Source: a virus
DNA length: 17,049 nucleotides
UHGV virus genome: UHGV-0279031
Reading direction: 5' to 3' (one strand)
Positions 1-16,748 of this stretch are shown here, in pieces. The position numbers and the translations under genes were made by a program. Positions within the stretch are counted from its first letter, which is position 1; each line of letters starts with the position of its first letter. The notes beneath the pieces were generated by a model, which ran no database searches, was not told the DNA's origin, and saw only the letters and a program-made list of their open reading frames with translations.

Positions 1-123
1 GTTGAAGATCATCGGGGTAAAACGGTTTATGACGTGGCTTCCGGCGACGCGTTATTTATTTCTGAACTCGGTCCGTTACCGGAAAATGTTACCTGGTTAT
101 CGCCGGAAGGGGAGTTTCATTAG
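1..123 (+). pseudogene. tfa: Tail fibre assembly protein (Tfa) internal fragment, running off the window start and ending at TAG 121-123
   Basis: Frame 1 translates [40 protein letters not shown], which closely matches the middle of lambda Tfa as I recall it. Orientation is opposite to the tail genes. The ORF track reports a different frame (2..205) that shows no such similarity. Confidence 0.55.
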
Positions 124-183: not shown

Positions 184-1110
184 TTATGCAAGCCTCACAA
201 TATAGTTAAATGCGATGTTTTTGACGGTGTTTTCCGCGTTACCAGCTGCGTTAACGGTGATGGTGTGTCCATGTGAACCAATCGCAACGGAGTGCGTATG
301 CGCACCAATACCTACAGTATGTGCGTGTGCACCTGCGCTTGCAGCAGTACCCGATACAGAGTGCGTATGAGCGCCTGCAGAAGAAGTGTTAACACTGTAT
401 TTAGAATAATCAGGTGATCCACTTCCCGGAGCACCTTTGGTGCCACCTGAAACAAATGTTATCGAATGGGTATGTGCACCGGCTGAAGCAGCCGTACCGC
501 TAACACTATGGGTATCGGACGTTGGCTGGTCATATTCATCCGCGACCGCCGGACCGTGATAACCGCACTCATCACCGCGATAGGTCCAGGTGCAGGTATT
601 AGCAAGCATGATGCGCCCCGGAAAAACAGCGCCGTCCGTTTCCGTCGGCGTGGACAGTACAAAGGAGGCACTGACCGCGCTCAGTTCGCTGCACTGCTCA
701 ATACGCCAGCGGCTGATCACCTCCTGCTCCGGATCGGCGTCACTGTTTCCGTTGACGAAGTTCACCGCATCCAGAAAACGGGCGTAAACCTTACGCCTGA
801 CCACCGTTCCGCCGACCAGACTCTGCAGGTCTTCCGCCATCCCGGTGACCATGCCGTGCAGATTAGAGACTTTCAGCGTTGGCCTTGCACTGGCACCTTT
901 GCCGTTCATCTCAAATCCACTCCCCTGAATGGGATAGGCCTGATACTGCCGACTCTGCCAGGTGACAGACTCTCCTTTCTCGTTCTGCTCATTGCAGAAA
1001 AAGTAGCGATCCCCGCCTACCTCGGTCAGGTCGATTTCCCAGAGCACCACGCTGGCCGACTGCTCCGCACGAATGCATTCATTCAGCGTTTCCTGTTGTA
1101 TGTCCTGCAT
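184..1110 (-). CDS. Chimeric tail protein: gpL-like minor tail protein (about 200 aa) fused in frame to a His-rich tail-fibre tip repeat domain
   Basis: N-terminus [33 protein letters not shown]...[12 protein letters not shown] is near-identical to lambda gpL as recalled. After ...[12 protein letters not shown] the sequence becomes GAHTHS / GAHAHT / GSHGHT repeats ending [11 protein letters not shown], typical of side tail fibre C-termini. The start overlaps the gpM-like stop (ATGA). Confidence 0.75.
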
Positions 1111-1448
1111 CAGATCACCACTTCGTCAAACTGACACGAAAAATCGGTATAGGTGATATGTTCTGTCGCTGACCACGTTCGACACACCACTCTGATTTTT
1201 CTGTTAATACCCGGCGGGCGCCAAAAAAAAGATTTATAGCCTTCATGCCGGGCTAAAAATTTTTCAAATGAATCACGTTCATTCGCCTCAACTTTGAAAT
1301 CACAGGTGAAAACGCGCAGAGAATGATTAAGTCCATTTGGACTTCGTTGCTCATAACCATCACCAAATCTTACAGTTTTTATCGATGGTTTATTTTCTGT
1401 TTTCATTCCATCCTCTGGTAACCAGTGAAATTCTTCCGTATTAGCCAC
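1110..1448 (-). CDS. M: Minor tail protein, lambda gpM-like
   Basis: 112 aa; the motif [16 protein letters not shown]...[16 protein letters not shown] resembles lambda gpM; sits between tape measure and gpL-like gene as in lambda (H-M-L). Confidence 0.75.
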
Positions 1449-4400
1449 TTAACATTCCCCCATCACGTCGCATATTTAACAGATTGCCCTGCACCCGCTG
1501 ATCAACCATCCCCATAAGTGCTTTTATTGCCTGAGGGCCAATCTCTCCATTCTGGCCGTCATTTTGAATAGTGATTTGGTATACAGGGGCATAGGTAATA
1601 TCTCCGCCTCCATTACCACTTTTACTATTAATAGCTCTGACACCAAGAGAACCATCGGAAGTTCGTGTTAATGGCATAATGGCTTCCGGTCCAGCCTCAC
1701 CAAAAACACCAGCCCCTTTTGCAAAAGCAAAAAATTGCGGGGAATCATAAATACCGTTCGAATACGTGCTCAATGACGGAGACTCATAAACACCGCCCTT
1801 TGCATTCGGAATAAATTTACTAATAGCACTCCCGATAGTTCCTAAAATCCCCCCAGAAGAACTGTTACTAATGCTGTCGATAATCCCAGTAATTGAAGCC
1901 TTTAATGCTATTCGACTAAGATCCGAAATCACGGAAGTAGCGAAAGAACGAAAATTTGCCTTGCCTGTCGTGACAAAATCACCCAGCGCATCGGTCATCC
2001 CATCAAACATCTGAGTCGTGGTTGATTTTATCTGCTCACTGATATCCTTAGTGTCATCCAGCCAGTTATTGAATCCCTGGGAGGCACCACTAACCCAGTC
2101 TCCTGCCTGAATATCGAGCTGCTCGTTTTTCTGTCTGACAATTTCTTTTTCCCGTTCCAGAGCATCATTCAGAGCCTGCATTTTCTCTTGAAAAACATGA
2201 TCTGACATTCCACGGGATTTATCTGCATAGTCACGTTCAAGTTGCAGACGCTGATTGTTATATCCATGTTCAATCCGCAGTAATTCCTGCTGGCGTTGCT
2301 GATTTTTATCGCCAACCCCATAACCAGCAATCTGAATATCATACCCCTGCTGACGATTATCAATCGAAGCCTGCAATGAATCACGCCATGCTGTTATTTC
2401 GGCGGATTCCTTGATTAGCCTGTTATTTTTTTCAATCGCAACATTTTTCTCCATCAACGTGGTTATTTCTTCCCGGTGTAAGAGAAGCGATTTCTGATCC
2501 TGGGTTAATTTCGATGATGGTCGTGACTCTAGGTCGGCAATCCGCTGACGCCACTTAACCAGTTCCTGTTCAGAGGAACTTAATTTAACGGTCAACTCAG
2601 CTTGTGAACTTAGTAACGCATTCTGTTGATTCAGATGATCAATCATTCGTTGGGCTGCATCATCAGAATAACCTTTCGCCTTTGGTTGCTTTGGATCTTT
2701 ATAACGCTCATTTATTTGAGCGATAAGATTATTATATTCTTCCTTTGAATACTGATTCTTTAGCTTTTCCAGTTTTGCAAGTTCACTAGCTCTCTGCTGC
2801 TCCCGGGTCTGATATTGTTTTGAAAAGGCATCTGCTCTCTGTCTGAGTTCAATTCCTTCCTGTTGTCGCTTGTTGTAATCGTTTATTGATGAATTTAGTA
2901 CGTCCTGAGCAATTTTTTCTGCTTGAAGTACGCCCAATTGCTGCTTTAATCGTGCCAGCCTTTTATTTTGAGCTCCGCCATCTCCAATGCCACCTAACCC
3001 GAAAACTCCGGGTCGGGTATTTTTTTCTATTTCATCAATTTGACGGAGAACATCTGAGATTTTTTGATCAAGGGAGGCCTCACGGCCAATATCCAGCATG
3101 GAATCCCATGCCCATTTTGCGGAGTCTGCGACAGCTTTCCATGCAGTCTCAAGATAACCAAGATTTTCTTTAATCTGGTTGGTGCGCTGGATCATTGAGG
3201 ATGAGTATTCTTCTGTCGCAATGCGGGCGGCCTCCTGCTGGTTCCCTTCATCCTGTAGCGCCTTAATCTGGTTATAAGTCGCAAGTGTCAGAAAATGGTA
3301 CTGATCATTAAGTTTTGATATGGCACTGACAGGATCCTTTGCAATTTCATTGAAGTCATTAACCAGTTGTTCGGTTGATATTCCTGTTACTTCGCTCGTT
3401 TTTACTATCGCTGTCGTCACTTGCTCCAGCGAACTGCTCGCTACCTTTCCCGAACGCACAAGCTGATTTAATACTGCCGCCGCAGCACCAGTTGTCGAAT
3501 CAGCCGCATTCCCGGCACGTTGAGCTATATCGCCCAATTGCCCGCTGGTTGTCCCCAACTGATTTCCGGTAAGAATAAGAGATTTATTAAATTCGTCCTG
3601 CTCCTGAGAGCCTTTATAGTAAGCCAGTCCTAAGACCCCAACGGCTGCTGCGGCCAGGGTAAAAGGATTAATTAATCCCAGCACATAAGAACCTACACCT
3701 TTGATCGCCGGGCCAATCCCACCGAACATATCTTTTAGCTGGCCGCCCTGCTGCATTAACACCATAAATGGCGACTGACCAGTGGACAACCCAACAACAA
3801 TATCCGTCATTTGTGCAGGCAACATGCGCATAGCAAAAGCCGTTTGTTTTGCCGACATTCCGGTTTTGCTTAATTGTGATTGAGTAACCTCAAGCTCACT
3901 CCGCATAGCACGAAGTTTTCCAGAAAGCTCCTCATACATTTCAGGAGAAAGCATCCCCTTAGCTTTTGCTTCATTGAGCTGTTTCTGTTGTTCTACCAGA
4001 CGATTAAAAGCAGTTCCGACAGGATCAAGTTGAGCAATCAGACGTTGCAAAGCAACAACCTGTTCATCATGCGCTTTTGCTGCTTCTCGCTCTGCCTGAG
4101 CCTCTCCGGTAAGCTCTCGCCGTGTTTCCTGTATTTTTCGGCTATAATTCTCAAACTGAGAACCATTTATTTTCCCGGATGCAAACGCAGCATTAAGTTC
4201 ATCATGCTGTTGTTCAAGATTTCTTAGCGCCGCAGCCAGAGGGTCGATCTTGTCCAGCATTCTTTGAAAGGCCTGAGCCTGCGCTTCCTGCTGGGCGGCA
4301 GCAAGTTTTCCGGCCTTCTCGGCTTCTCTCTGCGCTTGCGCAACCCCGCTCAATTCCTCTGTGGTTTCATTAAGTTTACGGACAAGAAATTCATATTCTT

Positions 4401-4674
4401 CTTTATCAATAAGCCCTTTATCGAAAAATTTCTTTAATTCAGAATAGCGTCGACCGACAGTATCAATTGCGGCACCAACTGGATCAATAGCTGCTTTTAA
4501 TTTTGCGAGCGCGTTCTTCTCATCTTCTGTTGCCTTAGTCACTTTCCCTGCGCTATTTGCAGCAGTTTCCCCAGCCTGCGTCATTTTGACTAATGAGGAG
4601 GTCAGATTGTCAGCATTATTTTTCGCTCCAGTGCTATCAATAATTATTGCGAGACGCGAGGTTTGCTCTGCCAT
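1441..4674 (-). CDS. Tail tape measure protein
   Basis: 1077 aa; long coiled-coil-rich N-terminal part, central hydrophobic Gly-rich segment ([42 protein letters not shown]), position immediately upstream of gpM/gpL. AGGAG Shine-Dalgarno 10 nt upstream of the ATG. Confidence 0.85.
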
Positions 4675-4689
4675 TTATTAAAACTCCTG

Positions 4690-4719
4690 ACAACAAAAAA
4701 CCCACCGCGAAGTGGGTTT
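4690..4719 (-). terminator. Intrinsic-terminator-like hairpin between the GT chaperone and the tape measure gene
   Basis: Minus-strand RNA: AAACCCAC-UUCGCG-GUGGGUUU (8-bp stem, 6-nt loop) followed by UUUGUUGU. It ends about 18 nt before the tape measure start codon. Confidence 0.4.
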
Positions 4720-4839
4720 CAGGCGACATAATAGTAGATATAGCGATTACGAGGCCACGCAATGCTTTTCTCCAGGAGCATCATCGATTTAATTAAAGAC
4801 ACCATCACATCTCTGTAACAGAGTGTACGTAATTAACAA

Positions 4840-5609
4840 CTACACACACTGCTCCTGAAAATACTGGTCATCCAGTGCAAAGATCACTGCTTCAAATTCA
4901 TCGCGCTCAATCAATACCGGATGAGTGGCTAAATATTCATTTATCTCTGTCAGAGATAAAGGCAAAGGCACCCCAGCCATTCCAGCATAACGTCGGGCAC
5001 GGGATATTACCGAATAGGCGTACAACAACTCCTTAAGCACCGGGTCTATTTCTGGTTCCGGTATCGGTGGCAACCTGAGTTTTTCTCGCTTCCATCTTGC
5101 CTTTTCCCCCCTTTCTCCCCCGAACTCCGATAACCACCGCTGGGCAGCTATGGCTTTTTTATCGTATCCTGCTTCTGCTGCTCTTTACCCTGGGCGATGC
5201 TGGCTGCTTCTGCAAGGATCTGCCAGTACAACTCTGGATTCTGCTTAAGCAGCGCGATCCCTCGTTCTGCCGTATATTCCAGTGCAACCTCAACACCATT
5301 AACCAGTTCACCAACCCCTTTCCAGTCTTTCAGCAGATAACGAGCGGCATTATCAATGAGTAAATCATCAACAGAATCCACCTCGGAAACCTTTGAAATA
5401 TCAAACTCCTTCGTTCCGACGTGCAAACTGGCATCCATTTTCTCAATGTGGCGACGGATTAATGCATTACGGGAGCGATACTGATCGTTATCGCTGCTTG
5501 CCACCAACAGTTTTAACCCGTCTACAGGTTTTAAGTCCTTCATTGGCGTAAACCAGCGTTCTCCACCAATGATAATTTTCTGATTAAGAATAAACATCCA
5601 TAACCTCAT
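4840..5609 (-). CDS. Tail assembly chaperone GT-like fusion product made by programmed -1 frameshift
   Basis: The -1 frame from the slip site is open with no stops and joins the 77-aa ORF 4840..5073 (…GEKGGKGKMEAREKLRLPPIPEPEID…). This is the same arrangement as lambda G/GT. Confidence 0.6.
5148..5609 (-). CDS. Tail assembly chaperone, gpG-like
   Basis: 153-aa ORF immediately upstream of the tape measure module; ends in the slippery heptamer A_AAA_AAG followed directly by TAG. Start could instead be the ATG at 5597 (GAGG 6 nt upstream). Confidence 0.65.
   Translation of the reverse strand: MRLWMFILNQKIIIGGERWFTPMKDLKPVDGLKLLVASSDNDQYRSRNALIRRHIEKMDASLHVGTKEFDISKVSEVDSVDDLLIDNAARYLLKDWKGVGELVNGVEVALEYTAERGIALLKQNPELYWQILAEAASIAQGKEQQKQDTIKKP
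5154..5160 (-). other. Programmed -1 ribosomal frameshift slippery heptamer A_AAA_AAG
   Basis: Minus-strand sequence GAT ACG ATA AAA AAG CCA TAG: a canonical X_XXY_YYZ heptamer positioned two codons before the gpG-like stop. Confidence 0.6.
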
Positions 5610-5657
5610 TCAATGCGTCCCCCTGTAGGGCAGTACCACAGGAGGAATAACGGAAAA

Positions 5658-6231
5658 TCAACTAATCGCCTCAGCACTGGCTTTTGCGATCACGGCAGCC
5701 GGGGAATTTTTTTTTCTGGTTATCGTAGGTGCTTCATCTGCTGCGGTAACCTGACGAGCCAGAGCAGCATCAGAAAGATCATCTTTAACACCAAACGGCG
5801 TTGTCCCTGCGGTTCCCACGGCGCGGGAAGCACCGAAATACAACGCACCAAGATCAGCCTCAACCTCGTTTGCAAGGGCGCGAAAAGCCTGCTTGAACTG
5901 ATCAGCCAGAATGGTGTTGTAAGTCCCTGAAGGGCCAAGAGCCAGTTGTTCTTCACCATTCCATTTAACCGGTGCCATTTTGGATTTAGTAATTTTTACA
6001 TCAACAGTGCCAATATTTTGATCACCGGTATTCGGAGCTGACGGCCCCGGTACGATATCTTCGGTTTTCGCCTCAGGCGCAACTGGCGCGGTTACCGTCT
6101 GATCTTTTGCTGCGGCGTCAGCTTTTGCGTTTTTTGCTACCGCAGGGATAAAACCTACCTGCTCACGGGATACAACATCCAGGGCGGTATAAATAGTCGG
6201 GATCAACCCGGTCAGGGTATTTCCAGCCATA
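5658..6231 (-). CDS. Hypothetical phage structural protein (191 aa) in the slot between scaffold and tail chaperone
   Basis: ORF with AAGGA Shine-Dalgarno 10 nt upstream of the ATG at 6231 (MAGNTLTGLIPTIYTALDVVSRE...). The ORF-track start at 6323 is less likely. No family recognised; too short for an HK97-fold capsid protein, compatible in size with a tail tube protein. Confidence 0.3.
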
Positions 6232-6328
6232 ATTAAATATTCCTTAAAAATTTGCGTAATTGTGAATAGATGGAGTAATGAGCTATCCAGCCCTGACACC
6301 AGCTCCCATCCGGAAGCTGACAAATGTG

Positions 6329-7093
6329 TTAATCAACGATTGTGATACCGTCTTTCAATGCGTTTTGCTTACCTGCAACATCCAGTGCATCAAAAGCAGA
6401 GCGTTTCATCGTTTTCTGACCAATATCATGCTGTGTCGGACGGGAGCCGCCGCCATTGTTGCCACTGGCTTTCAGGATGTAGTCTTTCTGAGGGTAATTT
6501 TCGACAAGGAACTCCAGCGCCTCATCAAACTGCGCCAGTTCGCCAGGCTTCGCGCGGGAATAAATTTTGTTGCCGGAAGCGTCATAAGCAACGATCCTCC
6601 CTTCTTCCACTTTGAATGCCTGCCCGAAGCGGGCTTGTAATAAATCTGCCGGGATCGCAATTTTATCGGCAATATATTTTGAACCCGCAAAACTACCGCC
6701 AATCATAGAATCGTAAAGCTGCTTCTCCAGCATCTGAGAGCGTTGCTTTTCTTCATCTAATTGCTGCTGAAAATTTTTCGTAATTTCTGCCTTAACCTGG
6801 TCAACCTGTCCCGCATCGAGCAGCTTTTTCTGGTCGATTTTTGACAGCATTTCCAGTGCCTCGATCGCCTTCTTCGGGTCTTCGATAGCGGCAAACTTAG
6901 CCAGTTTTTCCTCTGCAGCTTCTTTAGCCAGGCGATGATTTTTTGCCTCGCCATTAAGCTCTGTAATTTTTTTTGTCGCCAGCGGTGCATCGAAGCCAAT
7001 TTCTTTACCATCGTCGTGCACATAAACTGGCAGGCCAGCAGTATCAATTTCTGCGTATTGTTTTCCGTTAATCTCGACCGTTTTCAGTTTCAT
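6329..7093 (-). CDS. Probable head scaffolding protein
   Basis: Start MKLKTVEINGKQYAEID; long charged helical, probably coiled-coil, middle section (AKEAAEEKLAKFAAIEDPKKAIEALEMLSKIDQKK...QQQLDEEKQRSQMLEKQL); follows the portal and MuF-like genes. The upstream extension in the ORF track (7094..7165) overlaps a terminator-like hairpin and was trimmed. Confidence 0.45.
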   Translation of the reverse strand: MKLKTVEINGKQYAEIDTAGLPVYVHDDGKEIGFDAPLATKKITELNGEAKNHRLAKEAAEEKLAKFAAIEDPKKAIEALEMLSKIDQKKLLDAGQVDQVKAEITKNFQQQLDEEKQRSQMLEKQLYDSMIGGSFAGSKYIADKIAIPADLLQARFGQAFKVEEGRIVAYDASGNKIYSRAKPGELAQFDEALEFLVENYPQKDYILKASGNNGGGSRPTQHDIGQKTMKRSAFDALDVAGKQNALKDGITIVD

Positions 7094-7150
7094 ATTAGTA
7101 CCTGGTTTAAGTCTTCCGACAGTTACGCTGCTCACCATCCGGATCGCAGC

Positions 7151-7177
7151 AATAAAAAAGGCCACCCGAAGGTAGCC
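7151..7177 (-). terminator. Terminator-like hairpin in the MuF-like/scaffold intergenic region
   Basis: Minus-strand RNA GGCUACC-UUCG-GGUGGCC (7-bp stem with one G-U pair, tetraloop) followed by UUUUUUAUU. Confidence 0.35.
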
Positions 7178-7197
7178 TGTTGTAATAAATGATTTAT

Positions 7198-8313
7198 TTA
7201 AATCCCTGCTTTTCTGAATACCTGTGCATCACGCTCACGGAGCTGCTTCAGCGTCAGCCATTCGCCTTTATCGGTGTAAAATTCATCTGGCGACATACCA
7301 CCATCCCGAATCAGCTTTGCTCGGCTTTCCCCCACAATCTGTTTTTGTCTGGTGTAAGGCTGACGCAAAAACCATTCCCTGTAGGTTGTATCTCCGGCCA
7401 CCACGCCATCCATGCTGGCCCGCTCAGCCGGGGAAATATCGCGAACATCAATACCCAGTTCCTTCGCTGATTTCAGAATGAACGTTTCCGTTGAGCGGCA
7501 GCAGAAATGAATTTTTCCCGGCCCCTGCAAATAAGGCACGCTGTGACCTACAGGTTTATTATTCAGCGTATATTTGAGGCGATCCCTGATTCGACATTGT
7601 GGCGTAGTACGATTATCAAGCGTTGATAACCATTGCTTACCCTTAATCAAATCATTATTCGCGCTGGCAAAACTCTCACGGGCAGTAGCAGCAAGATGTC
7701 CAACCGCTGTTTTTGCAATGCTGGCCGCATTAGCCCGGCTCATCTGCAATGCACCATCCTGAAATCCCTTACTGACATGTCCCCGAATTTTTCTTGCGAT
7801 CTGCTCATTGGTATCCCCCAGCAAAAAACCCTGACGCACTGTATTTGTTATGCGTCTGAGCCGATCCGCCTCAAGATCTGAGGTCCACTCACTGAGCAGT
7901 CGTCCCTGGAATGGTCGCGCCATTGCAGCGGCATAAAGTGCATCAGGAGAGATACCAACCAGAGGGTGAACATCAGCAACAAAATCAGGTAGCATAGAAT
8001 CAAACAGACTTAACTGATAACCAGCCTCATAAATTGCCAGCTCGTTCAGCTCTCCGGAGAGACTGGTAAACATGCTGTTAATAGCAGTGCGGTTAACCTC
8101 TCTGACGCTCGCCAGAAGTGACTCCAGGCGCTTAACGGTAAAACTACCTGGATCGAGGCTGTCCAGTGCTATCAGCAGGCGAGCAGTAAGTTCCGCATCG
8201 CTGTCATTCAGTATTTTCACCATTCTGGCAGCCACGCCAGTGCTATAGCGGGATATCCAGACTGCATGAGCAATTGATTCATCACGCAGCCGTTCATTCA
8301 CGGTTTGCATCAT
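7198..8313 (-). CDS. Head morphogenesis protein, phage Mu F-like / SPP1 gp7-like minor head protein
   Basis: 371 aa directly downstream of the portal gene; contains a ...GKIHFCCRST... segment resembling the conserved His/CRC motif of MuF-domain proteins. Confidence 0.5.
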   Translation of the reverse strand: MMQTVNERLRDESIAHAVWISRYSTGVAARMVKILNDSDAELTARLLIALDSLDPGSFTVKRLESLLASVREVNRTAINSMFTSLSGELNELAIYEAGYQLSLFDSMLPDFVADVHPLVGISPDALYAAAMARPFQGRLLSEWTSDLEADRLRRITNTVRQGFLLGDTNEQIARKIRGHVSKGFQDGALQMSRANAASIAKTAVGHLAATARESFASANNDLIKGKQWLSTLDNRTTPQCRIRDRLKYTLNNKPVGHSVPYLQGPGKIHFCCRSTETFILKSAKELGIDVRDISPAERASMDGVVAGDTTYREWFLRQPYTRQKQIVGESRAKLIRDGGMSPDEFYTDKGEWLTLKQLRERDAQVFRKAGI

Positions 8314-9700
8314 TGATTTCCATCAGCATTACACTCTGATTTTTTAATTCATCGATCACTTCCTCTGGACGGGAATCCTGATCGATAAATTTCAACGCCT
8401 GCAACACCCGAACCGCATCAATCTGACGTATATCACCGCCCTGACGCAATGACTGAACAGCCAGCGCGGAGGATGAGTCAAACACCTGGGCAGATACATC
8501 CAGTTCAGTGCGCACATCCACATTGCCACCGCAACTCTCTCCGATCCATTCCGCCATTATCTGGAGAATATTATCGAGGGCATCTTCGAGGGAGTTCGCC
8601 ATTGTATAAAGCGGCGAGTTTTCCTGCATTCGCTCTTCATTAGTCTGATCAACAGATTTGGTGGATGTATTTTCAGCACGCAGAAGTTTAGCGCCGGCAT
8701 GACGCATCTGATTTTCCAGCTTCTCAAGTGATGTTTCGCCAGATTCTATCGCTGCGCCACTATGTTCAACATATTCGAGGCCATTTTTTGTTCTGTCCTC
8801 AAAAATCGTAGCGGTGGATGCACCAACCGTCAGTTCTTCATTCCTGTCCAGCCCGTAGGCCACCAGCAATGGAACGCGGGCAACATGAAGAATATTGTCC
8901 TGCTCGCTCTGGCTTTGCCAGTGCTTGATATTCAGCAAGCCAAGATTAAGCAATGGCGGTGTACCACGCATAAATCCTGTTTTCTTCGTGTACAGTGTTA
9001 CCAGAGGAATATCATCACGGCTGGTATTCCATGACTCATGAAGCGTCCAGACAGATTCGCCATTAGTGCCTTCGCTACGTCGATAAATTTCAACTCGACG
9101 GGGCATAATATGGCGGATCTGCTCCACCTTCTTCTGCCCGAAATCATCACCATCAATAATGATGACCTCTTTTATACGCAAATCAGTGAGAACAACTTTC
9201 CCTTTTTCAACTTTCGATTTCCATCCAATAACCTGGCGTGGATTCAGCATCGTAACGTACGGACGACCACCGGTCGCGTTTTCATCGGCTTTTGTCCGAA
9301 TCTCTTTCATATCCGTTCGTGGATAGTCCACCAGCGCATGTGCCACACCATACTGAAATGCGAGGCTGAAAAATTGCTGTGCCCACACATCCAGTCGGCT
9401 CCCCTCCATGTCGATATTTTCTGCATATTCCCTGATTTTTGCCGGCGTTTCCTCACTCAATACTGTCGGCTCTGCAAATATGCGCCCAATATTTTGCTTG
9501 ATGCTTTCTTCATACACAGGAAGTAGCGTAGCCACAGACAGGCGTTTTTTATAAGCGTCTTCATCTTCGTTAGGCCATTTTGGGAGATAATTTTCCCCCT
9601 GCCTGCGCATTTCAAGCGTACCGCCCATCAGTGCGTCGTTAATATCCCACGCCTCCAGCATATCGTTATAGTCGAGGTTGGGTGTTGATATATCAGCCAT
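8294..9700 (-). CDS. Portal protein
   Basis: 468 aa, acidic; lies between the terminase large subunit and the MuF-like gene, the canonical portal position. No motif-level confirmation possible by eye. Confidence 0.6.
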   Translation of the reverse strand: MADISTPNLDYNDMLEAWDINDALMGGTLEMRRQGENYLPKWPNEDEDAYKKRLSVATLLPVYEESIKQNIGRIFAEPTVLSEETPAKIREYAENIDMEGSRLDVWAQQFFSLAFQYGVAHALVDYPRTDMKEIRTKADENATGGRPYVTMLNPRQVIGWKSKVEKGKVVLTDLRIKEVIIIDGDDFGQKKVEQIRHIMPRRVEIYRRSEGTNGESVWTLHESWNTSRDDIPLVTLYTKKTGFMRGTPPLLNLGLLNIKHWQSQSEQDNILHVARVPLLVAYGLDRNEELTVGASTATIFEDRTKNGLEYVEHSGAAIESGETSLEKLENQMRHAGAKLLRAENTSTKSVDQTNEERMQENSPLYTMANSLEDALDNILQIMAEWIGESCGGNVDVRTELDVSAQVFDSSSALAVQSLRQGGDIRQIDAVRVLQALKFIDQDSRPEEVIDELKNQSVMLMEINDANRE

Positions 9701-9702
9701 AA

Positions 9703-11013
9703 TTAAATCCGAAGTGATGTGACTCTTCCGGTCGGTTTGACAATAGGGAATTGCTTAACGATGAAATAACCTCCGGCATCATTCGGGTGATCATTGCCAG
9801 ATTTTTTATCAGGCTCCCCCTTCTCATCCCAGACCTGTTGCTCCAGAGATTCGGCATATAACGGGCAACGCTTCACATTAACTTTATAGCGACGCTCACC
9901 ATTGGCATTGCAGAACATTGCATTCATTGAGTTAACGCGATCTTTTACTGGCGGGTTCGAGCTGTTCACCACAACGTTAAAACCAGCCTACTTAAGCTGG
10001 GCTATATCCGTCGTACTTGCGTTACTTGATTTTCTGGAATCCCCGGAAGCATCTGGATAAATATAAATTTCCCTCACTTTCCGGTAATCATTCCCATCAT
10101 ACAGCCAGAAGCGTTCTTTAATGATGCGGATCATATCCGGCGTATCGTAGGCATTGATGATTTCAGTTACCGCACATGGAAGCCCCAAACGCAGCACATG
10201 GACGATTCCCGCCATCTTTCCAACGTTAAAATCCATCCCAATATAAATCGGCTCCCCTGGCTGCTCCACTTCTTCGCAATTATTCAGTTTCCGGTCAAAC
10301 TGATGGTAAACAGTACCACTTGTCAGGTTAGTAAACTGTCCTCGAAGATAGGCTTTAATCAGCTCTGGAGGGTATGATTCAAGAAGCGAAGGAATGTAAT
10401 CTGCTGGCAGGTTCTTTTCATTATCGAAAGTAGATGCCTGCACCAGACCATACAGTGAGGCCAGCTCTGTTTTTTCACGCACGGCTTTAACAAACTGCTC
10501 GTAGACAAATTTGAATCCTTCCGGCGTGGTTGTAACGTCAATACCGTTGCGAAGTCCATCAATCTTATAACGCATACGTGCAATTATCTTGCGCCACGCC
10601 GTTCTGGCTTTTTCCTTCGGCAAAATGTCCAGTTCATCCACCAACGCATTACCAATTTTGAAACCGACGATCGTTTGTGGCTTCTCCATCGATCTGCAGA
10701 TAGTGGTTCCCCGATACTGGCGTCCGTAATAAAAGTGAACCTCTTTATTTCCCTCATTAATTTTTACGTTCAATCCCCAGTCAGCAGCAACTTCTTCCAC
10801 TGTAGGGTAAAAAATATCGCGAATTTGGGGATACGTTGGCGCAAAATATCCCTGATTTATACCTGGATGCTCCCAAATCCCCTTGCATATGCCGCCACAC
10901 CCAACCCATGTTTTGCCCGAGCCAAAACCAGCAATATAGGCTTTAAATTTATGGGGCATTGAAAGAAATCGCGCCTGAGGCACATTAAGCGTCGGAGAGA
11001 TCATCTTCATCAC
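9703..11013 (-). pseudogene. Terminase large subunit interrupted by a single in-frame TAG (plus-strand 9988-9990)
   Basis: N-terminal ORF (341 aa) has Walker A GFGSGKT and a nuclease-domain start (IYIGMDFNVG). The 89-aa ORF 9703..9972 is in the same frame and ends with NDHPNDAGGY, which looks like a terminase nuclease C-terminal motif. Only TAG plus five sense codons separate them (...DIAQLK*AGFNVVVNSS...). Confidence 0.7.
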
Positions 11014-12079
11014 TCCTTACTCTGGCATCAACCACATTAATATTGATCGCCACAGGCTGGGGATATTCATTATCTTCCACCGTTTCGATCTCTTTGCGCA
11101 GCTTCTGGTTTTCCATTCTGCGCCGTTCAATTTCCAGTTCCTGTAGCCGCTTATCTGCACATAAAGCCCCGCCAGCAGAAAACAAACGCAACAATTCACG
11201 CCGGGCGGCAGCCTTATCCTCCAGCAGGATCTCAACGCCGAATTTTCCGAATTTTGCCCCTGCATATAATTGCCGCGCATCCCCATCAAGCAGAGTGGTA
11301 TCAGCCATATAAAGCTGTCCCGTTTCCTCACCGCAGCACTTCGGGCAGTCCGGATTGGGTATGGCGTTATCAACAAAGCCGAGGCCTCCATATTCCGGTT
11401 CGGGTTTGCCATCTCTGGAAGCCTGCGCCGCTGCCTTGTCGAATTCTGCTATATCGCGCCACTGGTAGAGATGATTCTCGCCCCAGCAATAACGGCAGTT
11501 AACACGGCGAAATTGTGCAAGCTGATTGGGGTCGGCCAGGACAATAGCCATCAACTGACTCACTAGTAAATCCAGGTCTGCGGTATAGCGTTTCTGGTAC
11601 TGATTGCGGAAGTAGCTGATAGCGCGAAAAACCCTGGCATTTCTAAGCATACGACTGGCGTTGCTGTTAGCTGTCGCACCTTGCCCCTCATAACCGGCTA
11701 GTCGGTACGCCTCTGTCGGCTTTTTACCCTGAGCAACAAGCATCGCAAACTTAGCCTGCTGGTCAGAAATGCCGAATTCATCGGGACAGAACGAAAATTC
11801 CTCCGCGTCGCCCTCATTCAGGCCCGCATCGAATACTGGCTTTTTTTCCTGAGATTTTTCGTTCCGCTTTTGTGCAGTCTGCGCAGATTTTTTCTGCGCA
11901 CTTTTTTGCGCAGTTTTGCACATTTCTGTCTGCGCATTTTTCGGAGTTTTTTTGATGTAACGACGGGCTGTTGCGTAATTCAGTCCCCTTGCTTCACACC
12001 ATGCCACCGGAGATATACCGGAGCGGGTGTATTCAGCAATATACTCCTGCTGCAACGCCCCCCAGTCCGGTCTGCTCAT
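10985..12079 (-). CDS. Putative terminase small subunit / DNA-packaging DNA-binding protein
   Basis: 364 aa immediately upstream of and overlapping the terminase large subunit; N-terminal HTH-like segment, Cys cluster (CRYCW...CPKCC), basic AQK-rich stretch. Larger than a typical small subunit, so the call is positional. Confidence 0.4.
   Translation of the reverse strand: MSRPDWGALQQEYIAEYTRSGISPVAWCEARGLNYATARRYIKKTPKNAQTEMCKTAQKSAQKKSAQTAQKRNEKSQEKKPVFDAGLNEGDAEEFSFCPDEFGISDQQAKFAMLVAQGKKPTEAYRLAGYEGQGATANSNASRMLRNARVFRAISYFRNQYQKRYTADLDLLVSQLMAIVLADPNQLAQFRRVNCRYCWGENHLYQWRDIAEFDKAAAQASRDGKPEPEYGGLGFVDNAIPNPDCPKCCGEETGQLYMADTTLLDGDARQLYAGAKFGKFGVEILLEDKAAARRELLRLFSAGGALCADKRLQELEIERRRMENQKLRKEIETVEDNEYPQPVAININVVDARVRSDEDDLSDA
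11881..11946. repeat. Array of TGCGCA-like palindromic hexamers, each followed by a T-tract, inside the 5' part of the terS candidate
   Basis: TGTGCA 11881, TGCGCA 11890, TGCGCA 11905, TGCGCA 11917, TGCACA 11927, TGCGCA 11941; spacings of 9-15 bp; T4-7 tracts between them. Confidence 0.6.
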
Positions 12080-12082
12080 CAG

Positions 12083-12334
12083 TTAGTCCTGATTTTTATC
12101 CACCCTGAGTAGTTCGCGCAGAGCAAAGGCATCCCCTTTTCTGGCAAGCTTAAACAATGCCGCTCGTAACTCGGCTTCACCTTTCGCTCTGCCCTTACGG
12201 ATGGCCGCATAAAAATCTGTCATTGCTTCCCGATTTTCTTTCAGTCGGTTCAGATCAACATCCAGAACGTCAGCGATTTGTTGTGCAGTCATCCGGCACG
12301 CTGCCAGAGACTCGACTTTCGAATACGGAATCAT
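12083..12334 (-). CDS. Small helix-turn-helix-like protein (83 aa)
   Basis: GGGGGTGA Shine-Dalgarno 3 nt upstream of ATG 12334; contains MTAQQIADVLDVDLNRL, an HTH-like segment; tightly packed immediately upstream of the terS candidate. Confidence 0.4.
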   Translation of the reverse strand: MIPYSKVESLAACRMTAQQIADVLDVDLNRLKENREAMTDFYAAIRKGRAKGEAELRAALFKLARKGDAFALRELLRVDKNQD

Positions 12335-13220
12335 TTGTCACCCCCATTGATATGCAGGGTGTCTTCTTCCTGTATTTTTCGTGAAGGATTTTTACTGCAG
12401 CGTTGTTCCAGGTGACCTGATGGTGAATGCGTTTATGACTGGCACCCATAAGTGAGATTTTTACGCACGACGGCGCATACATGACGGAGTAAAAACTTTT
12501 AACGTAGGTTCCGGAATCCAGATACAGCTCGGTCATTCCGCCGCTGTTTTTCTGCGTCTGTTTCTGCCCTAACTGGACAGCACCGATCGTCATAAACAAT
12601 TCACCACAGCGACCGAGATTCGTGTACGTATTCACATCCTCGTTAATGCGCCCCATGAATGAGAACGGTCGATCAACCGAACAGATAAAGCTGTTCATTG
12701 CCTTGCGTTTCACCCACGAAGCATGGCCGCCATTGTCACCAAGAAAATCCCCGCCCTGCGACATAGCGATGGAAAGAGCAGGTATTGATTCGTAGTACGC
12801 AAGCATTTCAGAAAGGATCTCATCCAGTTTCCTTATCGGGAAATAGGCCTGGTCATAGTTGCGATCCACCCGAAACTGGAACTCGTGATAATCATCATCG
12901 AGCTGAATGAAGTATTTACACCCGACCAGTTTTGCCTGGTCGAAACAGGCATTACGGGCGTAAAAAATTGAGCGGCGGTCACTAAAATTATCGGCTTCGT
13001 CAAAACGACTAGCAATATCGGCTTTGGAAAATACCAGCACCTGTTCACCAAATTCAGCCATGTACTGATGCCGTGTCTTATCTTCATCATCAACAACGAT
13101 AAAAATTTTCCCGGTATAGCCAGCACGACGCAACGTCCGGTAAGTCAGAACTTTGTCCGGTCGCCCGTGAGTCAGAATAAAGGCGCAAAAATCATCACGC
13201 ATATTCCTCCTCCCCGCCAT
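12270..13220 (-). CDS. Uncharacterised enzyme-like protein with two acidic clusters (VVDDED, QLDDDY)
   Basis: 316-aa ORF; start overlaps the ParB-like gene stop (alternative ATG at 13202 preceded by GGAGGAGG). Strand-then-acidic pattern AFILTHGR...IFIVVDDED...YFIQLDDDY resembles DxD-type nucleotide-dependent transferases, but this is motif-level inference only. Confidence 0.3.
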   Translation of the reverse strand: MAGRRNMRDDFCAFILTHGRPDKVLTYRTLRRAGYTGKIFIVVDDEDKTRHQYMAEFGEQVLVFSKADIASRFDEADNFSDRRSIFYARNACFDQAKLVGCKYFIQLDDDYHEFQFRVDRNYDQAYFPIRKLDEILSEMLAYYESIPALSIAMSQGGDFLGDNGGHASWVKRKAMNSFICSVDRPFSFMGRINEDVNTYTNLGRCGELFMTIGAVQLGQKQTQKNSGGMTELYLDSGTYVKSFYSVMYAPSCVKISLMGASHKRIHHQVTWNNAAVKILHEKYRKKTPCISMGVTNDSVFESRVSGSVPDDCTTNR

Positions 13221-13983
13221 GCATGATCTCCACCATGCGCTGCGTCATTCGGACAAATCCATTTTCAATAGCCTGCTGATAATCAATGATCACCAGCGCC
13301 GACTCCTCGAAAAGGCACTGAATTTCAGCGGGGGCATGAGCGTAATAGTCCGCAATTCTGCTGAAATTAAACACCGTGTGACGTTCTGCTGCACACAGGA
13401 GGAATTTCTCAATATCAGGATCAAGGGACGCCGAACGTATCCGGCTGATCAGCTCCTGAGTTTTCGTATCGTCGTACAGTTCACTGATATCCGGTTTACC
13501 GCCTGACGGCTCATAAACAGGCGTATCAATTTTCGTCGTATACGGCTCCTCCTCATTTCCTGTACCGGGCAAAACATCCGTCAACAGTTCATCAATTTCT
13601 GCCGGGATGAAGCCTGTCAGGGAGACATCAAAATCAGCATTGATTAGGTCCGACAGCTCCATCCGCAACAGATCTTCATCCCAGCCAGCATTCATCGGCA
13701 GGCGATTATCTGCCAGGCGGTACGCCTTTTTCTGCTCATCCGTCAGGCCAGACAGAACAATGACCGGAACAGAATCCATTTTGAGCATTTCAGCCGCCAT
13801 AACACGACCGTGACCCGCAATAATTTCGCCCTTTTCGTCAATCAGCACCGGATTAGTCCAGCCGAATTGCTTAATACTTTCTACCAGTTGTGCCACCTGC
13901 TCAGTACTGTGCGTCCTGGCGTTGTGCGCATACGGTGACAATTCTTGTAATGGGCGATAGACTATCTTTAATTTCTCGCTCAT
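13195..13983 (-). CDS. ParB/sulfiredoxin-like N-terminal domain protein
   Basis: 262 aa; N-terminal region with ...PVLIDEKGEIIAGHGRVMAAEML..., a DGxHR-like ParB-fold motif; this is the position held by ynaK in Rac-like prophages, directly after trkG. Confidence 0.55.
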   Translation of the reverse strand: MSEKLKIVYRPLQELSPYAHNARTHSTEQVAQLVESIKQFGWTNPVLIDEKGEIIAGHGRVMAAEMLKMDSVPVIVLSGLTDEQKKAYRLADNRLPMNAGWDEDLLRMELSDLINADFDVSLTGFIPAEIDELLTDVLPGTGNEEEPYTTKIDTPVYEPSGGKPDISELYDDTKTQELISRIRSASLDPDIEKFLLCAAERHTVFNFSRIADYYAHAPAEIQCLFEESALVIIDYQQAIENGFVRMTQRMVEIMHGGEEEYA

Positions 13984-13998
13984 ACAGCCTTGCTTTAT

Positions 13999-14034
13999 GA
14001 ATAAAACGCACCCCAGCAGCCAGTGCTACTGGGG
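13999..14034 (-). terminator. Possible terminator downstream of trkG
   Basis: Minus-strand RNA CCCCAG-(12-nt loop)-CUGGGG followed by UGCG-UUUUAUU; the loop is longer than typical, so the call is weak. Confidence 0.3.
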
Positions 14035-14120
14035 GCGGAGGTGTTGCTGGTAAAGTTAGGTATTGGATCAATGAGCGAGTCAACATAATATTAAACTCAC
14101 AATTATAAATCAGCCATATA

Positions 14121-15578
14121 TTAGGAGCGCCAAAAAAAACCTGAAAACAATATAATAACAGGATAAATTTCAAGGCGACCAAGAATCATAGCTATGCACA
14201 TTAAATATTTTGCAATGTCATTAAGCACTCCGAATGACGATGCAGTAGCCCCAAAACCTAATCCCATATTATTAATACATGCAGCCACTGTTGCAAATGA
14301 TGTAAGAAAATCATATCCCATACCATTTAACACCAGTATAAAAAACACCGTGAAGAGAGTATAAAGAAAAAAGAAACTCCATACAGACCTCATTACACGA
14401 TCTGTAACTATCTTCCCTCCTACATTTACACTCAACAACGCTCTGGGATGAGAAAGCTGATTTATCTCGTGTTTGCTTTGTTTGAAAAGTATAAGAAATC
14501 GAAGTGACTTAATTCCACCACAGGTTGAACCTATACATCCCCCAAAGAAACTTGACAACAGCAAAAACACTATCGTGTGCGTGGGCCAGTTTGCATAATC
14601 CTGCGTAGCTAAACCATTATCAGTGAGCATGGAGCTGGCAAGAAAAAACGAATGAATAAAACTTCCATGCAAGTCATACATACCTATATGCCAGACCTGG
14701 AAAGAGGTAACAATGATCACCCCTAAGGCTATTAACAGAAAGAAACGAAGTTCAATATCTCTGATTAAAGGTTTTATCGTTTTTCTGCTAATAACAATAT
14801 ACCAAAGAGTGAAGTTGAAAGCCGATAGCAGGGAAAAAGAACCAGCCACCAGCTCAACCAAATAGTTATTAAAATATCCGATACTCTCGCTATGAGTTGA
14901 GAAACCACCAAGCGAAACTGTGGAAATCCCGTGACAAATAGCATCAAACAAAGGCATTCCTGCAAGTCTATAACAGACAATACAAGCAATACCTAATAAA
15001 GAATAAGTTATCCACAGTGTCCGTGACGTATCGGCCAGGCGGGGAGTGAGTTTGTCATCCTTAAATGGCCCCGGCATTTCTGACTGATAAAGCTTTGCAC
15101 CACCAATACCCAATAATGGCAATACTGCAACCGCCAGAACAATAACTCCTAAACCACCTATAAAATTTAACTGTGACCGATAGTACAAATATGCCCGAGG
15201 TAATGAACTAACATCATCAATTACAGTTGCTCCTGTTGTTGTTATTCCAGAAACCCCTTCAAACAGAGCATCAATGAACGTTAAATTAAGTTCTGAGTCA
15301 ATCCATAAAGGGAATGCACTAATAACAGAAAACAAAATCCAAAACATTACAATTATAATAAACCCATCACGGGTACGTAATTGAATGCCAGATTTCTTAG
15401 TTGTATACCACGCTCCGCCACCAATGCAAAAAAATATAACGAAAGTTATAAAGAAAACGAACAGGCTTTTTTCTTTATAAAACAATGCTACAACCATTGG
15501 TGGCAACATTGAAAGACTATAGAGCCAAACCAGGAACCCACACATATGAGTAACAACTCTTACATGAGATGTATTCAT
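14121..15578 (-). CDS. trkG: Trk-system potassium uptake membrane protein TrkG (TrkH/TrkG family)
   Basis: 485 aa from ATG 15578 (MNTSHVRVVTHMCGFLVWLYSL...), matching my recollection of E. coli Rac-encoded TrkG; many hydrophobic segments; markedly AT-rich relative to the flanking phage genes. The ORF track starts 18 nt upstream at a TTG. Confidence 0.85.
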   Translation of the reverse strand: MNTSHVRVVTHMCGFLVWLYSLSMLPPMVVALFYKEKSLFVFFITFVIFFCIGGGAWYTTKKSGIQLRTRDGFIIIVMFWILFSVISAFPLWIDSELNLTFIDALFEGVSGITTTGATVIDDVSSLPRAYLYYRSQLNFIGGLGVIVLAVAVLPLLGIGGAKLYQSEMPGPFKDDKLTPRLADTSRTLWITYSLLGIACIVCYRLAGMPLFDAICHGISTVSLGGFSTHSESIGYFNNYLVELVAGSFSLLSAFNFTLWYIVISRKTIKPLIRDIELRFFLLIALGVIIVTSFQVWHIGMYDLHGSFIHSFFLASSMLTDNGLATQDYANWPTHTIVFLLLSSFFGGCIGSTCGGIKSLRFLILFKQSKHEINQLSHPRALLSVNVGGKIVTDRVMRSVWSFFFLYTLFTVFFILVLNGMGYDFLTSFATVAACINNMGLGFGATASSFGVLNDIAKYLMCIAMILGRLEIYPVIILFSGFFWRS

Positions 15579-15715
15579 ATCTAAATATTCTTTCAATTAT
15601 AACCACCTTGCTGCAATATTATGATTATACTGTATAAAATTTAACTCCTCTTAGATCTTACTTCACTGTTCCTTATGAAACAATCATCAAAATGAATCAT
15701 ATTGTAGTTAAGATT

Positions 15716-16180
15716 TTACTTTAAACACTGCTCGGTTATGTATTGCTGAGCACCTTCAAGTTGGGCCTGCATCATTACCAGTCGTTCCCGGAGGGTGAAA
15801 TAATCCCGTTCAGCGGTGTCTGCCAGTCGGGGGGAGGCTGCATTATCCACGCCGGAGGCGGTGGTGGCTTCACGCACTGACTGACAGACTGCTTTGATGT
15901 GCAACCGACGACGACCAGCGGCAACATCATCACGCAGAGCATCATTTTCAGCTTTAGCATCAGCTAACTCCTTCGTGTATTTTGCATCGAGCGCAGCAAC
16001 ATCACGCTGACGCATCTGCATGTCAGTAATTGCCGCGTTCGCCAGCTTCAGTTCTCTGGCATTTTTGTCGCGCTGGGCTTTGTAGGTAATGGCGTTATCA
16101 CGGTAATGATTAACAGCCCATGACAGGCAGACGATGATGCAGATAACCAGAGCGGAGATAATCGCGGTTACTCTGTTCAT
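15716..16180 (-). CDS. Rz: Rz i-spanin
   Basis: From ATG 16180 (ATGA overlap with the endolysin stop) the translation [60 protein letters not shown]... is near-identical to lambda Rz. Confidence 0.9.
15775..15960 (-). CDS. Rz1: Rz1 o-spanin lipoprotein, embedded in the +1 frame of Rz
   Basis: [52 protein letters not shown]: signal peptide, lipobox VVGC and proline-rich body, as in lambda Rz1. Confidence 0.9.
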
Positions 16181-16745: not shown

Positions 16746-16748
16746 GCC

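What the first reader, a model, noticed from the sequence alone, without database searches (positions are those of the whole stretch)
5658..7093. No ORF large enough for a major capsid protein between scaffold and tail chaperone
After portal, MuF-like and scaffold genes one expects a capsid protein of about 300-400 aa plus head-tail connector and tail tube genes. Only one 191-aa ORF (5658..6231) fills the slot before gpG. The head/tail-tube module is therefore deleted, or this protein is an unusual compact structural protein. Its N-terminus (MAGNTLTGLIPTIYTALDVV) and a C-terminal AGTTP segment loosely recall capsid protein termini, which could fit an internally deleted capsid gene.
Basis: inference. 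Interest (0 to 1): 0.5.

Follow-up and report, generated by a model that had tools for sequence, protein, structure and literature searches.

The report
Capsid-to-tail-tube deletion in Rac-like prophage
The short gene sitting where a capsid gene should be is the leftover of a 3.3-kb deletion in a decaying Rac-type E. coli prophage: it joins the first 161 codons of the capsid gene to the last 29 codons of the tail-tube gene, which is ordinary prophage decay.

Summary
Between the scaffold gene (6329..7093, -) and the YdaY/gpG-like tail chaperone (5148..5609, -) there is one ORF, 5658..6230 (-). It is 190 aa, not 191.

The window is a Rac-like lambdoid prophage of E. coli, about 99% identical to intact relatives. 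Against those relatives it lacks 3,326 bp. The junction is at window 5748/5749, at a 2-bp TT microhomology.

The deletion fuses codons 1-161 of a 379-aa P22-coat-family major head gene, in frame, to the last 29 codons of the 320-aa tail-tube gene. It removes the rest of the capsid gene, five head-tail joining genes and nearly all of the tube gene.

The same element has three further lesions:
- an 8,559-bp deletion fusing gpL to the StfR C-terminus
- an amber codon in the large terminase
- a truncated holin

Both junctions and the amber codon recur in 11 independently assembled contigs, so they are not assembly errors. None of them is found in any of 5,426 complete RefSeq E. coli genomes. K-12 Rac lost the same module through different breakpoints.

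Verdict: a dead fusion remnant in a defective prophage. It is not a compact capsid protein. Low interest.

The parts
5658..6230 (-). 190-aa chimeric ORF: an in-frame fusion of the truncated coat gene to the 3' end of the tail-tube gene. This is the finding itself.
   Evidence: Residues 1-161 are identical to the 379-aa coat protein of E. coli NCTC9080. Residues 162-190 are identical to the last 29 aa of its 320-aa tail-tube protein. PHROG phrog_283 'major head protein' matches at E=1.4e-51 but covers only profile positions 2-164 of 385.
5748..6230 (-). Coat-derived part: codons 1-161 of a P22_CoatProtein-family major head gene.
   Evidence: Collinear with L003 up to position 14004 and with L001 up to 10553. 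The intact protein scores 45.8 bits on Pfam PF11651 (cut-off 24) and matches phrog_283 over its full length at E=2e-135.
5748..5749 (-). Deletion junction: a 2-bp TT microhomology shared by both parental flanks.
   Evidence: Three-way alignment of the window with the left and right flanks of L003. The junction is reconstructed exactly from L003 ..14004 joined to 17331... The same 50-mer is present in 11 independent contigs.
5658..5747 (-). Tail-tube-derived part: the last 29 codons plus the stop of a Phage_tube_2 tail-tube gene.
   Evidence: Collinear with L003 17331..17420. The intact 320-aa protein hits Pfam PF18906 at E=9e-32.
6329..7093 (-). Head scaffolding gene (DUF6651), intact.
   Evidence: Pfam PF20356 at 204 bits and phrog_206 head scaffolding protein at E=2e-22. 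100% aa identity to the NCTC9080 copy.
5148..5609 (-). YdaY, the lambda gpG-like tail assembly chaperone, intact. The A_AAA_AAG slippery site lies at 5154..5160.
   Evidence: phrog_313 tail assembly chaperone at E=4e-46. Precomputed Pfam PF27119 Phage_YdaY in sister contigs. A -1 slip at the heptamer reads through into the next ORF.
4840..5073 (-). gpT-like -1 frame extension of the chaperone.
   Evidence: Weak Pfam Phage_TAC_18 hit (21 bits, below cut-off) and phrog_1189. The frame relation was verified by translation.
1441..4674 (-). Tape measure protein, intact (1077 aa).
   Evidence: Pfam TMP_2, TMP_4 and Tape_meas_lam_C. 99.6% aa identity to the NCTC9080 copy with no stops.
184..1110 (-). 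Second in-frame fusion: gpL residues 1-199 joined to the last 109 aa of side tail fibre StfR. The junction is at 513-515 (ATA microhomology). The 8,559-bp deletion removes gpK, gpI, gpJ, lom and most of stfR.
   Evidence: Pfam Phage_tail_L covers only residues 29-201. The same junction occurs in 11 contigs.
9703..11004 (-). Large terminase gene inactivated by an amber codon: Q339 to TAG at 9988..9990. This cuts off most of the nuclease domain.
   Evidence: Codon-by-codon comparison with the intact 433-aa protein. Pfam Terminase_6N falls on the 341-aa piece and Terminase_6C on the 89-aa piece. The amber codon is absent from all 750 complete genomes that carry this gene.
7198..9700 (-). Portal (DUF4055, 8294..9700) and MuF-like head morphogenesis gene (7198..8313), both intact.
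   Evidence: Pfam hits. 99.8% and 98.9% aa identity to the NCTC9080 copies with no stops.

Best explanation
The window is a Rac-type lambdoid prophage of E. coli that is decaying in place.

Shown: a single 3,326-bp deletion, joined at a 2-bp TT microhomology, removed seven things:
- the last 218 codons of the P22-coat-family major head gene
- a 58-aa gene
- four head-tail joining genes, including the tail terminator
- the first 291 codons of the tail-tube gene

The two genes lie in different reading frames in the intact phage. A deletion length of 2 mod 3 therefore joins them in frame and leaves a 190-aa coat'-'tube ORF.

Inferred: this ORF is a non-functional remnant, effectively a pseudogene. 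It keeps the promoter-proximal context and ribosome-binding site of the coat gene, so it may still be translated whenever the late operon is read. It lacks more than half of the capsid protein, so it cannot build a shell. The breakpoint structure points to RecA-independent illegitimate recombination, either microhomology-mediated end joining or replication slippage.

Shown: the element also carries a gpL'-'StfR deletion, a terL amber codon and a truncated holin, while the trkG cargo gene is intact. From these lesions I infer that the element cannot make heads, tails or packaged DNA. It probably persists only as a chromosomal passenger.
For: 1. Identity of the element. The window is 99.4% identical over 11 kb and 99.1% over 5.2 kb to the Rac-like prophage of E. 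coli NCTC9080. It shows the same two-block pattern against phage records ON470614 and ON032529, with the break at window 5748/5749.
2. What lies in the gap. The annotation of the intact relatives lists coat, five small genes, tail terminator and tail tube. Pfam confirms P22_CoatProtein, Phage_tail_terminator_5 and Phage_tube_2.
3. The junction. The flanks share only TT, and the junction is reconstructed exactly from the intact sequence.
4. The fusion. Residues 1-161 equal the coat protein and residues 162-190 equal the tube C-terminus. The PHROG major-head profile is matched only over positions 2-164 of 385.
5. Polarity. Full-length homologues of about 380 aa occupy the same slot in the phage HK639, alongside the same gene order. 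Hits in Klebsiella, Acinetobacter, Caulobacter, Rhizobium and cyanobacterial phages fall in genes annotated as coat or major capsid genes. The long form is therefore ancestral.
6. Not an artefact. Junction 1, junction 2 and the amber codon are all present in 11 contigs from different NCBI, ENA and IMG/VR assemblies, which differ from the window by 0-7 substitutions over 16.1 kb. The exact 190-aa protein is on at least 86 contigs.
7. Other lesions. The terL amber codon, the gpL-StfR fusion and the holin reduced to its last 24 codons.
Against: Nothing contradicts the deletion.

Limits of the evidence:
- Pfam and NCBIfam give no hit for the 190-aa ORF on its own. Its capsid identity rests on PHROG and on 100% identity to the intact protein.
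- The single-sequence AlphaFold model is uninformative (pLDDT 45), so the fold of the fragment is untested.
- Non-function is inferred, not shown.
- Both deletions give in-frame fusions. The chance of that is about 1 in 9, which leaves a little room for selection on read-through.
- The order of the lesions cannot be resolved, because every carrier examined has all of them, and no complete genome has any of the three searched for (the two junctions and the amber codon).
Confidence: 0.95

Rival explanations
1. The fusion ORF, and the parallel gpL-StfR fusion, are retained because they are useful. One possibility is a translated coat N-terminal fragment that poisons capsid assembly of superinfecting Rac/HK639-like phages. 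Another is that in-frame joins were favoured because they avoid polarity on downstream late genes.
For: Both deletions are in frame. The ORF keeps the coat gene's start context. The exact protein recurs on at least 86 contigs.
Against: Two in-frame joins are expected by chance about 1 time in 9. The carriers are nearly clonal (0-7 SNPs per 16 kb), so recurrence reflects descent rather than selection. One carrier (L004) has an 8-A run instead of a 9-A run, which shifts the frame of the tube-derived tail, and an IS256-family element inside the gpL-StfR fusion. The downstream tail genes are useless without the tube, gpJ, gpK and gpI.
Confidence: 0.03
2. The 190-aa ORF is a complete, unusually compact structural protein, and this phage builds its head differently.
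For: It occupies the capsid slot and has a good start context.
Against: It matches only the first 43% of the major-head profile. Its last 29 aa are the tail-tube C-terminus. The 19 relatives whose annotation was read have a major head gene of about 380 aa plus connector and tube genes, and all 27 phage tblastn hits fall in coat or major-head genes. The same element has an amber codon in terL and lacks tail-tip genes.
Confidence: 0.005
3. The junction is an assembly or chimera artefact of this contig, and the real genome is intact.
For: Both extreme ends of the window (1..119 and 16749..17049) do carry odd inverted or duplicated fragments that sister contigs lack or that could not be found elsewhere.
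Against: The identical junction 50-mer is present in 11 contigs from independent isolates and metagenomes, assembled by different groups and tools. In those contigs it lies up to about 100 kb from the nearest contig end.
Confidence: 0.01
4. The polarity is reversed: the short form is ancestral, and the 3.3 kb in other strains is an insertion.
For: None beyond formal possibility.
Against: The breakpoints fall inside two genes. The full-length form of the coat gene is conserved from E. coli to Caulobacter, Rhizobium and cyanophages, and both full-length genes, with the same gene order, are present in the phage HK639. The 3.3 kb carries exactly the missing halves of both genes.
Confidence: 0.002

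Closest known systems
Intact Rac-like prophages: E. coli NCTC9080 chromosome NZ_LR134295 (2483621-2512141), 'Escherichia phage vB_EcoS-666R9' ON470614 and 'Salmonella phage SPF_0923' ON032529
   Same: They are 99% identical in nucleotide sequence to the window. The gene order is the same: lysis cassette, trkG, ParB-like, TAGT, terS, terL, portal, MuF, scaffold, coat, then YdaY, TMP, gpM and gpL. The ON4706xx records are prophages predicted in silico with PHASTER in clinical isolates (bioRxiv 10.1101/2022.06.29.498070).
   Different: They keep three things the window has lost: the 3.3-kb coat-to-tube interval, the 8.6-kb gpL-to-stfR interval, and a sense codon (CAG) at terL 339.
Cryptic prophage Rac of E. 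coli K-12 MG1655 (NC_000913.3, 1411899-1434958)
   Same: It is the same prophage family, with the same trkG cargo and the same ydaY chaperone gene. It is also missing its head and tail-tube genes. It is recognised as cryptic, with many structural genes disabled (PMC11879457).
   Different: The lesions are independent and larger. K-12 lacks L003 6020..17578 (ynaK to ydaY, which takes out terS, terL, portal, MuF, scaffold, coat, connectors and tube) and 19339..27765 (TMP to lom), and has an IS5 in lomR. The window keeps terS through scaffold and a full tape measure gene.
Phage HK639 (NC_016158) morphogenesis module, with a P22_CoatProtein (PF11651) / phrog_283 major head protein
   Same: Its 378-aa major head protein is 78% identical to the ORF over residues 4-169. 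Gene order is the same: portal, head morphogenesis, 250-aa protein, major head, small protein, Ad1, Hc1, Ne1, tail terminator, major tail.
   Different: HK639 has the complete set of genes. The window ORF stops matching after residue 161.
Lambda gpG/gpGT tail assembly chaperone pair with a programmed -1 frameshift (own knowledge: Levin et al. 1993; Xu et al. 2004)
   Same: The YdaY ORF ends with an A_AAA_AAG heptamer. The -1 frame continues into the next ORF, immediately upstream of the tape measure gene.
   Different: The sequence family differs from lambda G (Phage_YdaY / phrog_313). Frameshifting was not tested. With no tube protein left, the chaperone has nothing to assemble.

Membership tests
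P22-coat-family / HK97-fold major capsid protein (Pfam PF11651, phrog_283) | Profile match over the whole length of the family model | tested here: not met
   The window ORF matches phrog_283 positions 2-164 of 385 only and has no Pfam hit. The intact relative matches positions 2-383 of 385 and scores 45.8 bits on PF11651 against a cut-off of 24.
P22-coat-family / HK97-fold major capsid protein (Pfam PF11651, phrog_283) | Descent from a bona fide family member (sequence identity of the retained part) | tested here: met
   Residues 1-161 are 100% identical to the 379-aa protein WP_032216333 of NCTC9080 and 78% identical to the HK639 major head protein.
P22-coat-family / HK97-fold major capsid protein (Pfam PF11651, phrog_283) | Complete HK97 fold (both P and A domains) able to form capsomers | tested here: inconclusive
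   The single-sequence AlphaFold2 model has pLDDT 45.3 and pTM 0.21. No PDB sequence relative was found for the intact protein. With 218 of 379 residues missing, a complete fold is not possible (inference).
Phage_tube_2 tail tube protein (PF18906) | Profile match over the tube domain | tested here: not met
   Only the last 29 of 320 residues are retained. The Pfam match in the intact protein spans residues 4-293, all of which are deleted here apart from residues 292-293.
Rac-type lambdoid prophage of E. coli | Near-identical sequence and synteny, including the trkG cargo gene between the lysis cassette and the ParB-like gene, and ydaY upstream of the tape measure gene | tested here: met
   99% nucleotide identity in collinear blocks with NCTC9080 and with the K-12 Rac genes trkG, ynaK, ydaY and the tape-measure fragment ynaA.
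Defective (cryptic, 'grounded') prophage | Loss or inactivation of genes essential for virion production | tested here: met
   Coat truncated. Connectors, tail terminator, tube, gpK, gpI and gpJ deleted. terL carries an amber codon. Holin truncated. Inability to form particles is inferred, not tested.
Lambda-like G/GT tail chaperone pair | Slippery heptamer near the end of the first ORF, with an open -1 frame running to just before the tape measure gene | tested here: met
   A_AAA_AAG at 5154..5160. The -1 product reads through to 4840 without a stop. Frameshifting efficiency is not testable here.

The most novel reading that the evidence does not exclude
The in-frame coat'-'tube fusion is expressed from the residual late operon. 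Its coat N-terminal fragment would act as a dominant-negative decoy that interferes with head assembly of superinfecting Rac/HK639-like phages. On this reading, the in-frame nature of both deletions reflects selection rather than chance.
Probability: 0.03. Interest if true: 0.4.

Novelty: already known. Interest (0 to 1): 0.08.

Why it matters
It matters little beyond annotation. The 190-aa protein is deposited many times as 'hypothetical protein [Escherichia coli]'. It should instead be labelled as a coat/tail-tube fusion pseudogene.

It also gives a clean, base-resolved example of how the same morphogenetic module of Rac has been destroyed independently in different E. coli lineages. This lineage lost 3.3 kb plus 8.6 kb and gained an amber codon. 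K-12 lost 11.6 kb plus 8.4 kb. The trkG cargo gene is kept in both. That fits the established picture of prophage domestication (PMC6379469; Bobay et al. 2014, cited in PMC11879457). For a genome scan, it shows that a 'missing capsid gene' flag in a prophage is best settled by aligning it to an intact relative.

Tried and rejected
1. Pfam and NCBIfam on the 190-aa ORF gave no hits. NCBIfam also gave nothing for the intact coat protein.
2. A PDB sequence search with the intact coat protein gave only a chance hit at E=0.38.
3. AlphaFold2 on the 190-aa ORF without an alignment gave pLDDT 45, which is unusable, so no fold search was run.
4. An exact junction scan of one genome per species (genome contigs) gave no match. 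IMG/VR gave one match.
5. I looked for intermediate alleles in 5,426 complete E. coli genomes to order the lesions. None has junction 1, junction 2 or the amber codon.
6. I tried to explain the scrambled window ends.
   - The junction pattern is not in IMG/VR.
   - The two small ORFs there are not on record.
   - The lysozyme look-up returned only unrelated strains with an intact holin.
   - There is no inverted repeat at the tfa breakpoint.
   This remains unresolved.
7. A promoter and terminator scan of 5000..7300 found nothing above the shuffled expectation.
8. A literature search found no paper describing this deletion allele.

Full report
**Observation.** All long ORFs in the window lie on the - strand. 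Read in the direction of transcription, they are:

| Window coordinates | Gene |
|---|---|
| 16177..16674 | lysozyme |
| 15716..16192 | Rz |
| 14121..15596 | trkG (low G+C) |
| 13195..13983 | ParB-like gene |
| 12270..13220 | TAGT-family gene |
| 10985..12079 | small terminase |
| 9703..11004 | large terminase, in two pieces |
| 8294..9700 | DUF4055 portal |
| 7198..8313 | MuF-like gene |
| 6329..7093 | DUF6651 scaffold |
| 5658..6230 | the ORF in question |
| 5148..5609 | YdaY tail assembly chaperone |
| 4840..5073 | 77-aa ORF |
| 1441..4674 | 1077-aa tape measure |
| 1110..1448 | gpM |
| 184..1110 | 308-aa gpL-like ORF |

It is 190 aa, not 191.

**What it is.** Megablast of 4700..7300 against phage records gave ten hits at 99.7-100% identity. 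All stop at the same base, and each has a second matching place further along the record. I fetched two of them (ON470614 and ON032529) and the prophage of E. coli NCTC9080, then aligned the whole window to them.
- Window 16748..5748 is collinear with NCTC9080 locus L003 3001..14004 at 99.4%.
- Window 5749..513 is collinear with L003 17329..22565 at 99.1%.
- The two blocks overlap by two bases (TT), and the flanks share nothing else.
- Joining L003 ..14004 to 17331.. reproduces the window junction exactly. The deletion is therefore 3,326 bp. It is 3,327 bp relative to ON470614, because NCTC9080 has a 1-bp frameshift in one of the lost genes.

**What was lost.** In the intact relatives the missing interval holds:
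- the last 657 nt of the 1,140-nt coat gene
- a 58-aa gene
- four genes of 126-131 aa, one of them a tail terminator (Pfam PF13554)
- all but the last 90 nt of the 963-nt tail-tube gene (PF18906)

The intact coat protein passes the Pfam gathering score for P22_CoatProtein (45.8 bits against 24). It matches PHROG 283 'major head protein' end to end.

**The fusion.** Translation shows that residues 1-161 of the window ORF are identical to the coat protein. Residues 162-190 are identical to the last 29 residues of the tube protein. The coat and tube genes are in different frames in the intact phage, so a deletion of 2 mod 3 joins them in frame. On its own, the ORF matches PHROG 283 only over positions 2-164 of 385.

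**Deletion, not insertion.** tblastn of the ORF against 50,697 phage records found 27 records, and every hit falls in a gene annotated as a coat or major head gene. Every alignment ends near query residue 168-173. The hits include phage HK639, which has a 378-aa major head gene followed by a small gene, Ad1, Hc1, Ne1, tail terminator and major tail. The long form is therefore ancestral.

**Real, not an assembly artefact.**
- The 34-mer across the junction occurs in one IMG/VR provirus.
- The exact 190-aa protein is on at least 86 contigs of E. coli isolates and gut metagenomes, named 'hypothetical protein'.
- Eleven fetched contigs all contain the junction 50-mer. They differ from the window by 0-7 substitutions over 16.1 kb.
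- None of 5,426 complete RefSeq E. coli genomes has the junction. About 700 of them carry the intact interval: 750 have this terL, and 673 cover at least 80% of the window.

The allele therefore marks one young lineage that is so far represented only by draft assemblies.

**The rest of the element is also broken.**
- A second deletion of 8,559 bp, at an ATA microhomology (window 513-515), fuses gpL residues 1-199 in frame to the last 109 residues of StfR. It removes gpK, gpI, gpJ, lom and most of stfR.
- The large terminase has CAG changed to TAG at codon 339 (window 9988..9990). This separates the ATPase domain from most of the nuclease domain.
- Only the last 24 codons of the holin essD remain.
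- Both junctions and the amber codon are shared by all 11 sister contigs. None of the three occurs in any complete genome, so the order of events is unresolved.
- Portal, MuF, scaffold, chaperone, tape measure, gpM and trkG are intact.

**Mechanism.**
- Shown: the breakpoints, the microhomologies, the in-frame fusions and the gene content lost.
- Inferred: each deletion arose by RecA-independent illegitimate recombination at 2-3 bp of microhomology.
- Inferred: the 190-aa product, if made, cannot form capsomers, because it lacks 58% of the protein.
- Inferred: the prophage cannot produce heads, tails or packaged DNA, and persists as a chromosomal passenger that carries trkG.
- The single-sequence AlphaFold model was too poor to add anything (pLDDT 45).

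**Comparison with what is known.** K-12 Rac is the same prophage family, but it lost the same module through different and larger deletions: L003 6020..17578 and 19339..27765, plus an IS5 in lomR. Cryptic Rac with disabled structural genes is textbook material (PMC11879457; PMC6379469). The finding is a further allele of a well-known kind of decay. I found no paper describing this particular allele, but the kind of thing is fully known.

**Verdict.** The 'internally deleted capsid gene' and 'compact structural protein' readings are wrong in detail. Interest is low. The only non-trivial residue is that both deletions are in frame, which has about a 1-in-9 probability by chance. That leaves a small probability that a fusion product has been co-opted.

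Noticed in passing
window 5154..5160 and 4840..5150 (- strand): The YdaY chaperone ORF ends ...ATA AAA AAG CCA TAG, which contains a canonical A_AAA_AAG slippery heptamer. A -1 slip there reads without a stop into the 77-aa ORF 4840..5073 and gives a lambda G/GT-type fusion just upstream of the tape measure gene.
   Followed up: partly
window 9988..9990 (- strand): There is an amber codon (CAG to TAG, Q339*) in the large terminase. It splits the gene into 341-aa and 89-aa ORFs. All 11 sister contigs share it. It is absent from all 750 complete E. coli genomes that carry this gene.
   Followed up: yes
window 184..1110, junction 513..515 (- strand): A second in-frame fusion ORF of 308 aa: gpL residues 1-199 joined to the last 109 aa of side tail fibre StfR. 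It was made by an 8,559-bp deletion at an ATA microhomology, which removed gpK, gpI, gpJ, lom and most of stfR.
   Followed up: yes
window 16749..17049: The lysis-cassette end is scrambled. On the - strand the order is: the reverse complement of the essD start and its upstream region (17049..16949), a duplicated rrrD 5' fragment (16948..16843), an inverted rrrD 3' fragment (16843..16748), and then only the last 24 codons of essD ahead of an intact rrrD. This arrangement is not contiguous in any complete E. coli genome and was not found in IMG/VR. It could be a private rearrangement or a contig-end chimera.
   Followed up: partly
window 1..119: The last 119 bases are the reverse complement of tfa sequence that lies 133 bp further downstream, in direct orientation, in the eight sister contigs that extend that far. 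There is no inverted repeat at the breakpoint. It is either a small private inversion or a contig-end artefact.
   Followed up: partly
window 12270..13983 (- strand): A ParB_N-domain protein (262 aa) is followed by a TET-associated glycosyltransferase family protein (TAGT, PF20691, 119 bits), directly upstream of the small terminase. This looks like a DNA-modification pair, but no TET/JBP gene is present in the window. K-12 ynaK is the truncated remnant of the ParB-like gene.
   Followed up: no
window 14121..15596 (- strand): The trkG potassium transporter cargo gene has a distinctly low G+C content (0.37-0.39 against about 0.48 for the rest). It is intact, at 99.6% aa identity to the NCTC9080 copy, while the surrounding virion genes decay.
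   Followed up: partly
L004 11091..12405 (IMG/VR UViG_2563366883_000017), equivalent to window 586..593: This sister provirus carries an extra IS256-family element inside the gpL-StfR fusion: a 402-aa Mutator-type transposase, about 1.3 kb, with an 8-bp target duplication. It also has an 8-A run instead of a 9-A run at window 5707..5715, which shifts the frame of the tube-derived tail of the fusion ORF.
   Followed up: partly
L005..L011, about 16840..20290: In the seven sister contigs that extend that far, the prophage tail-fibre assembly gene is followed directly by a four-gene metal ABC transporter on the opposite strand (ZnuA, ABC_tran and two ABC-3 genes). In NCTC9080 and K-12 the same position holds pinR, ydfK (ynaE in K-12), ynaM and uspF. 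The right-hand end of the element or its neighbourhood therefore also differs in this lineage.
   Followed up: no
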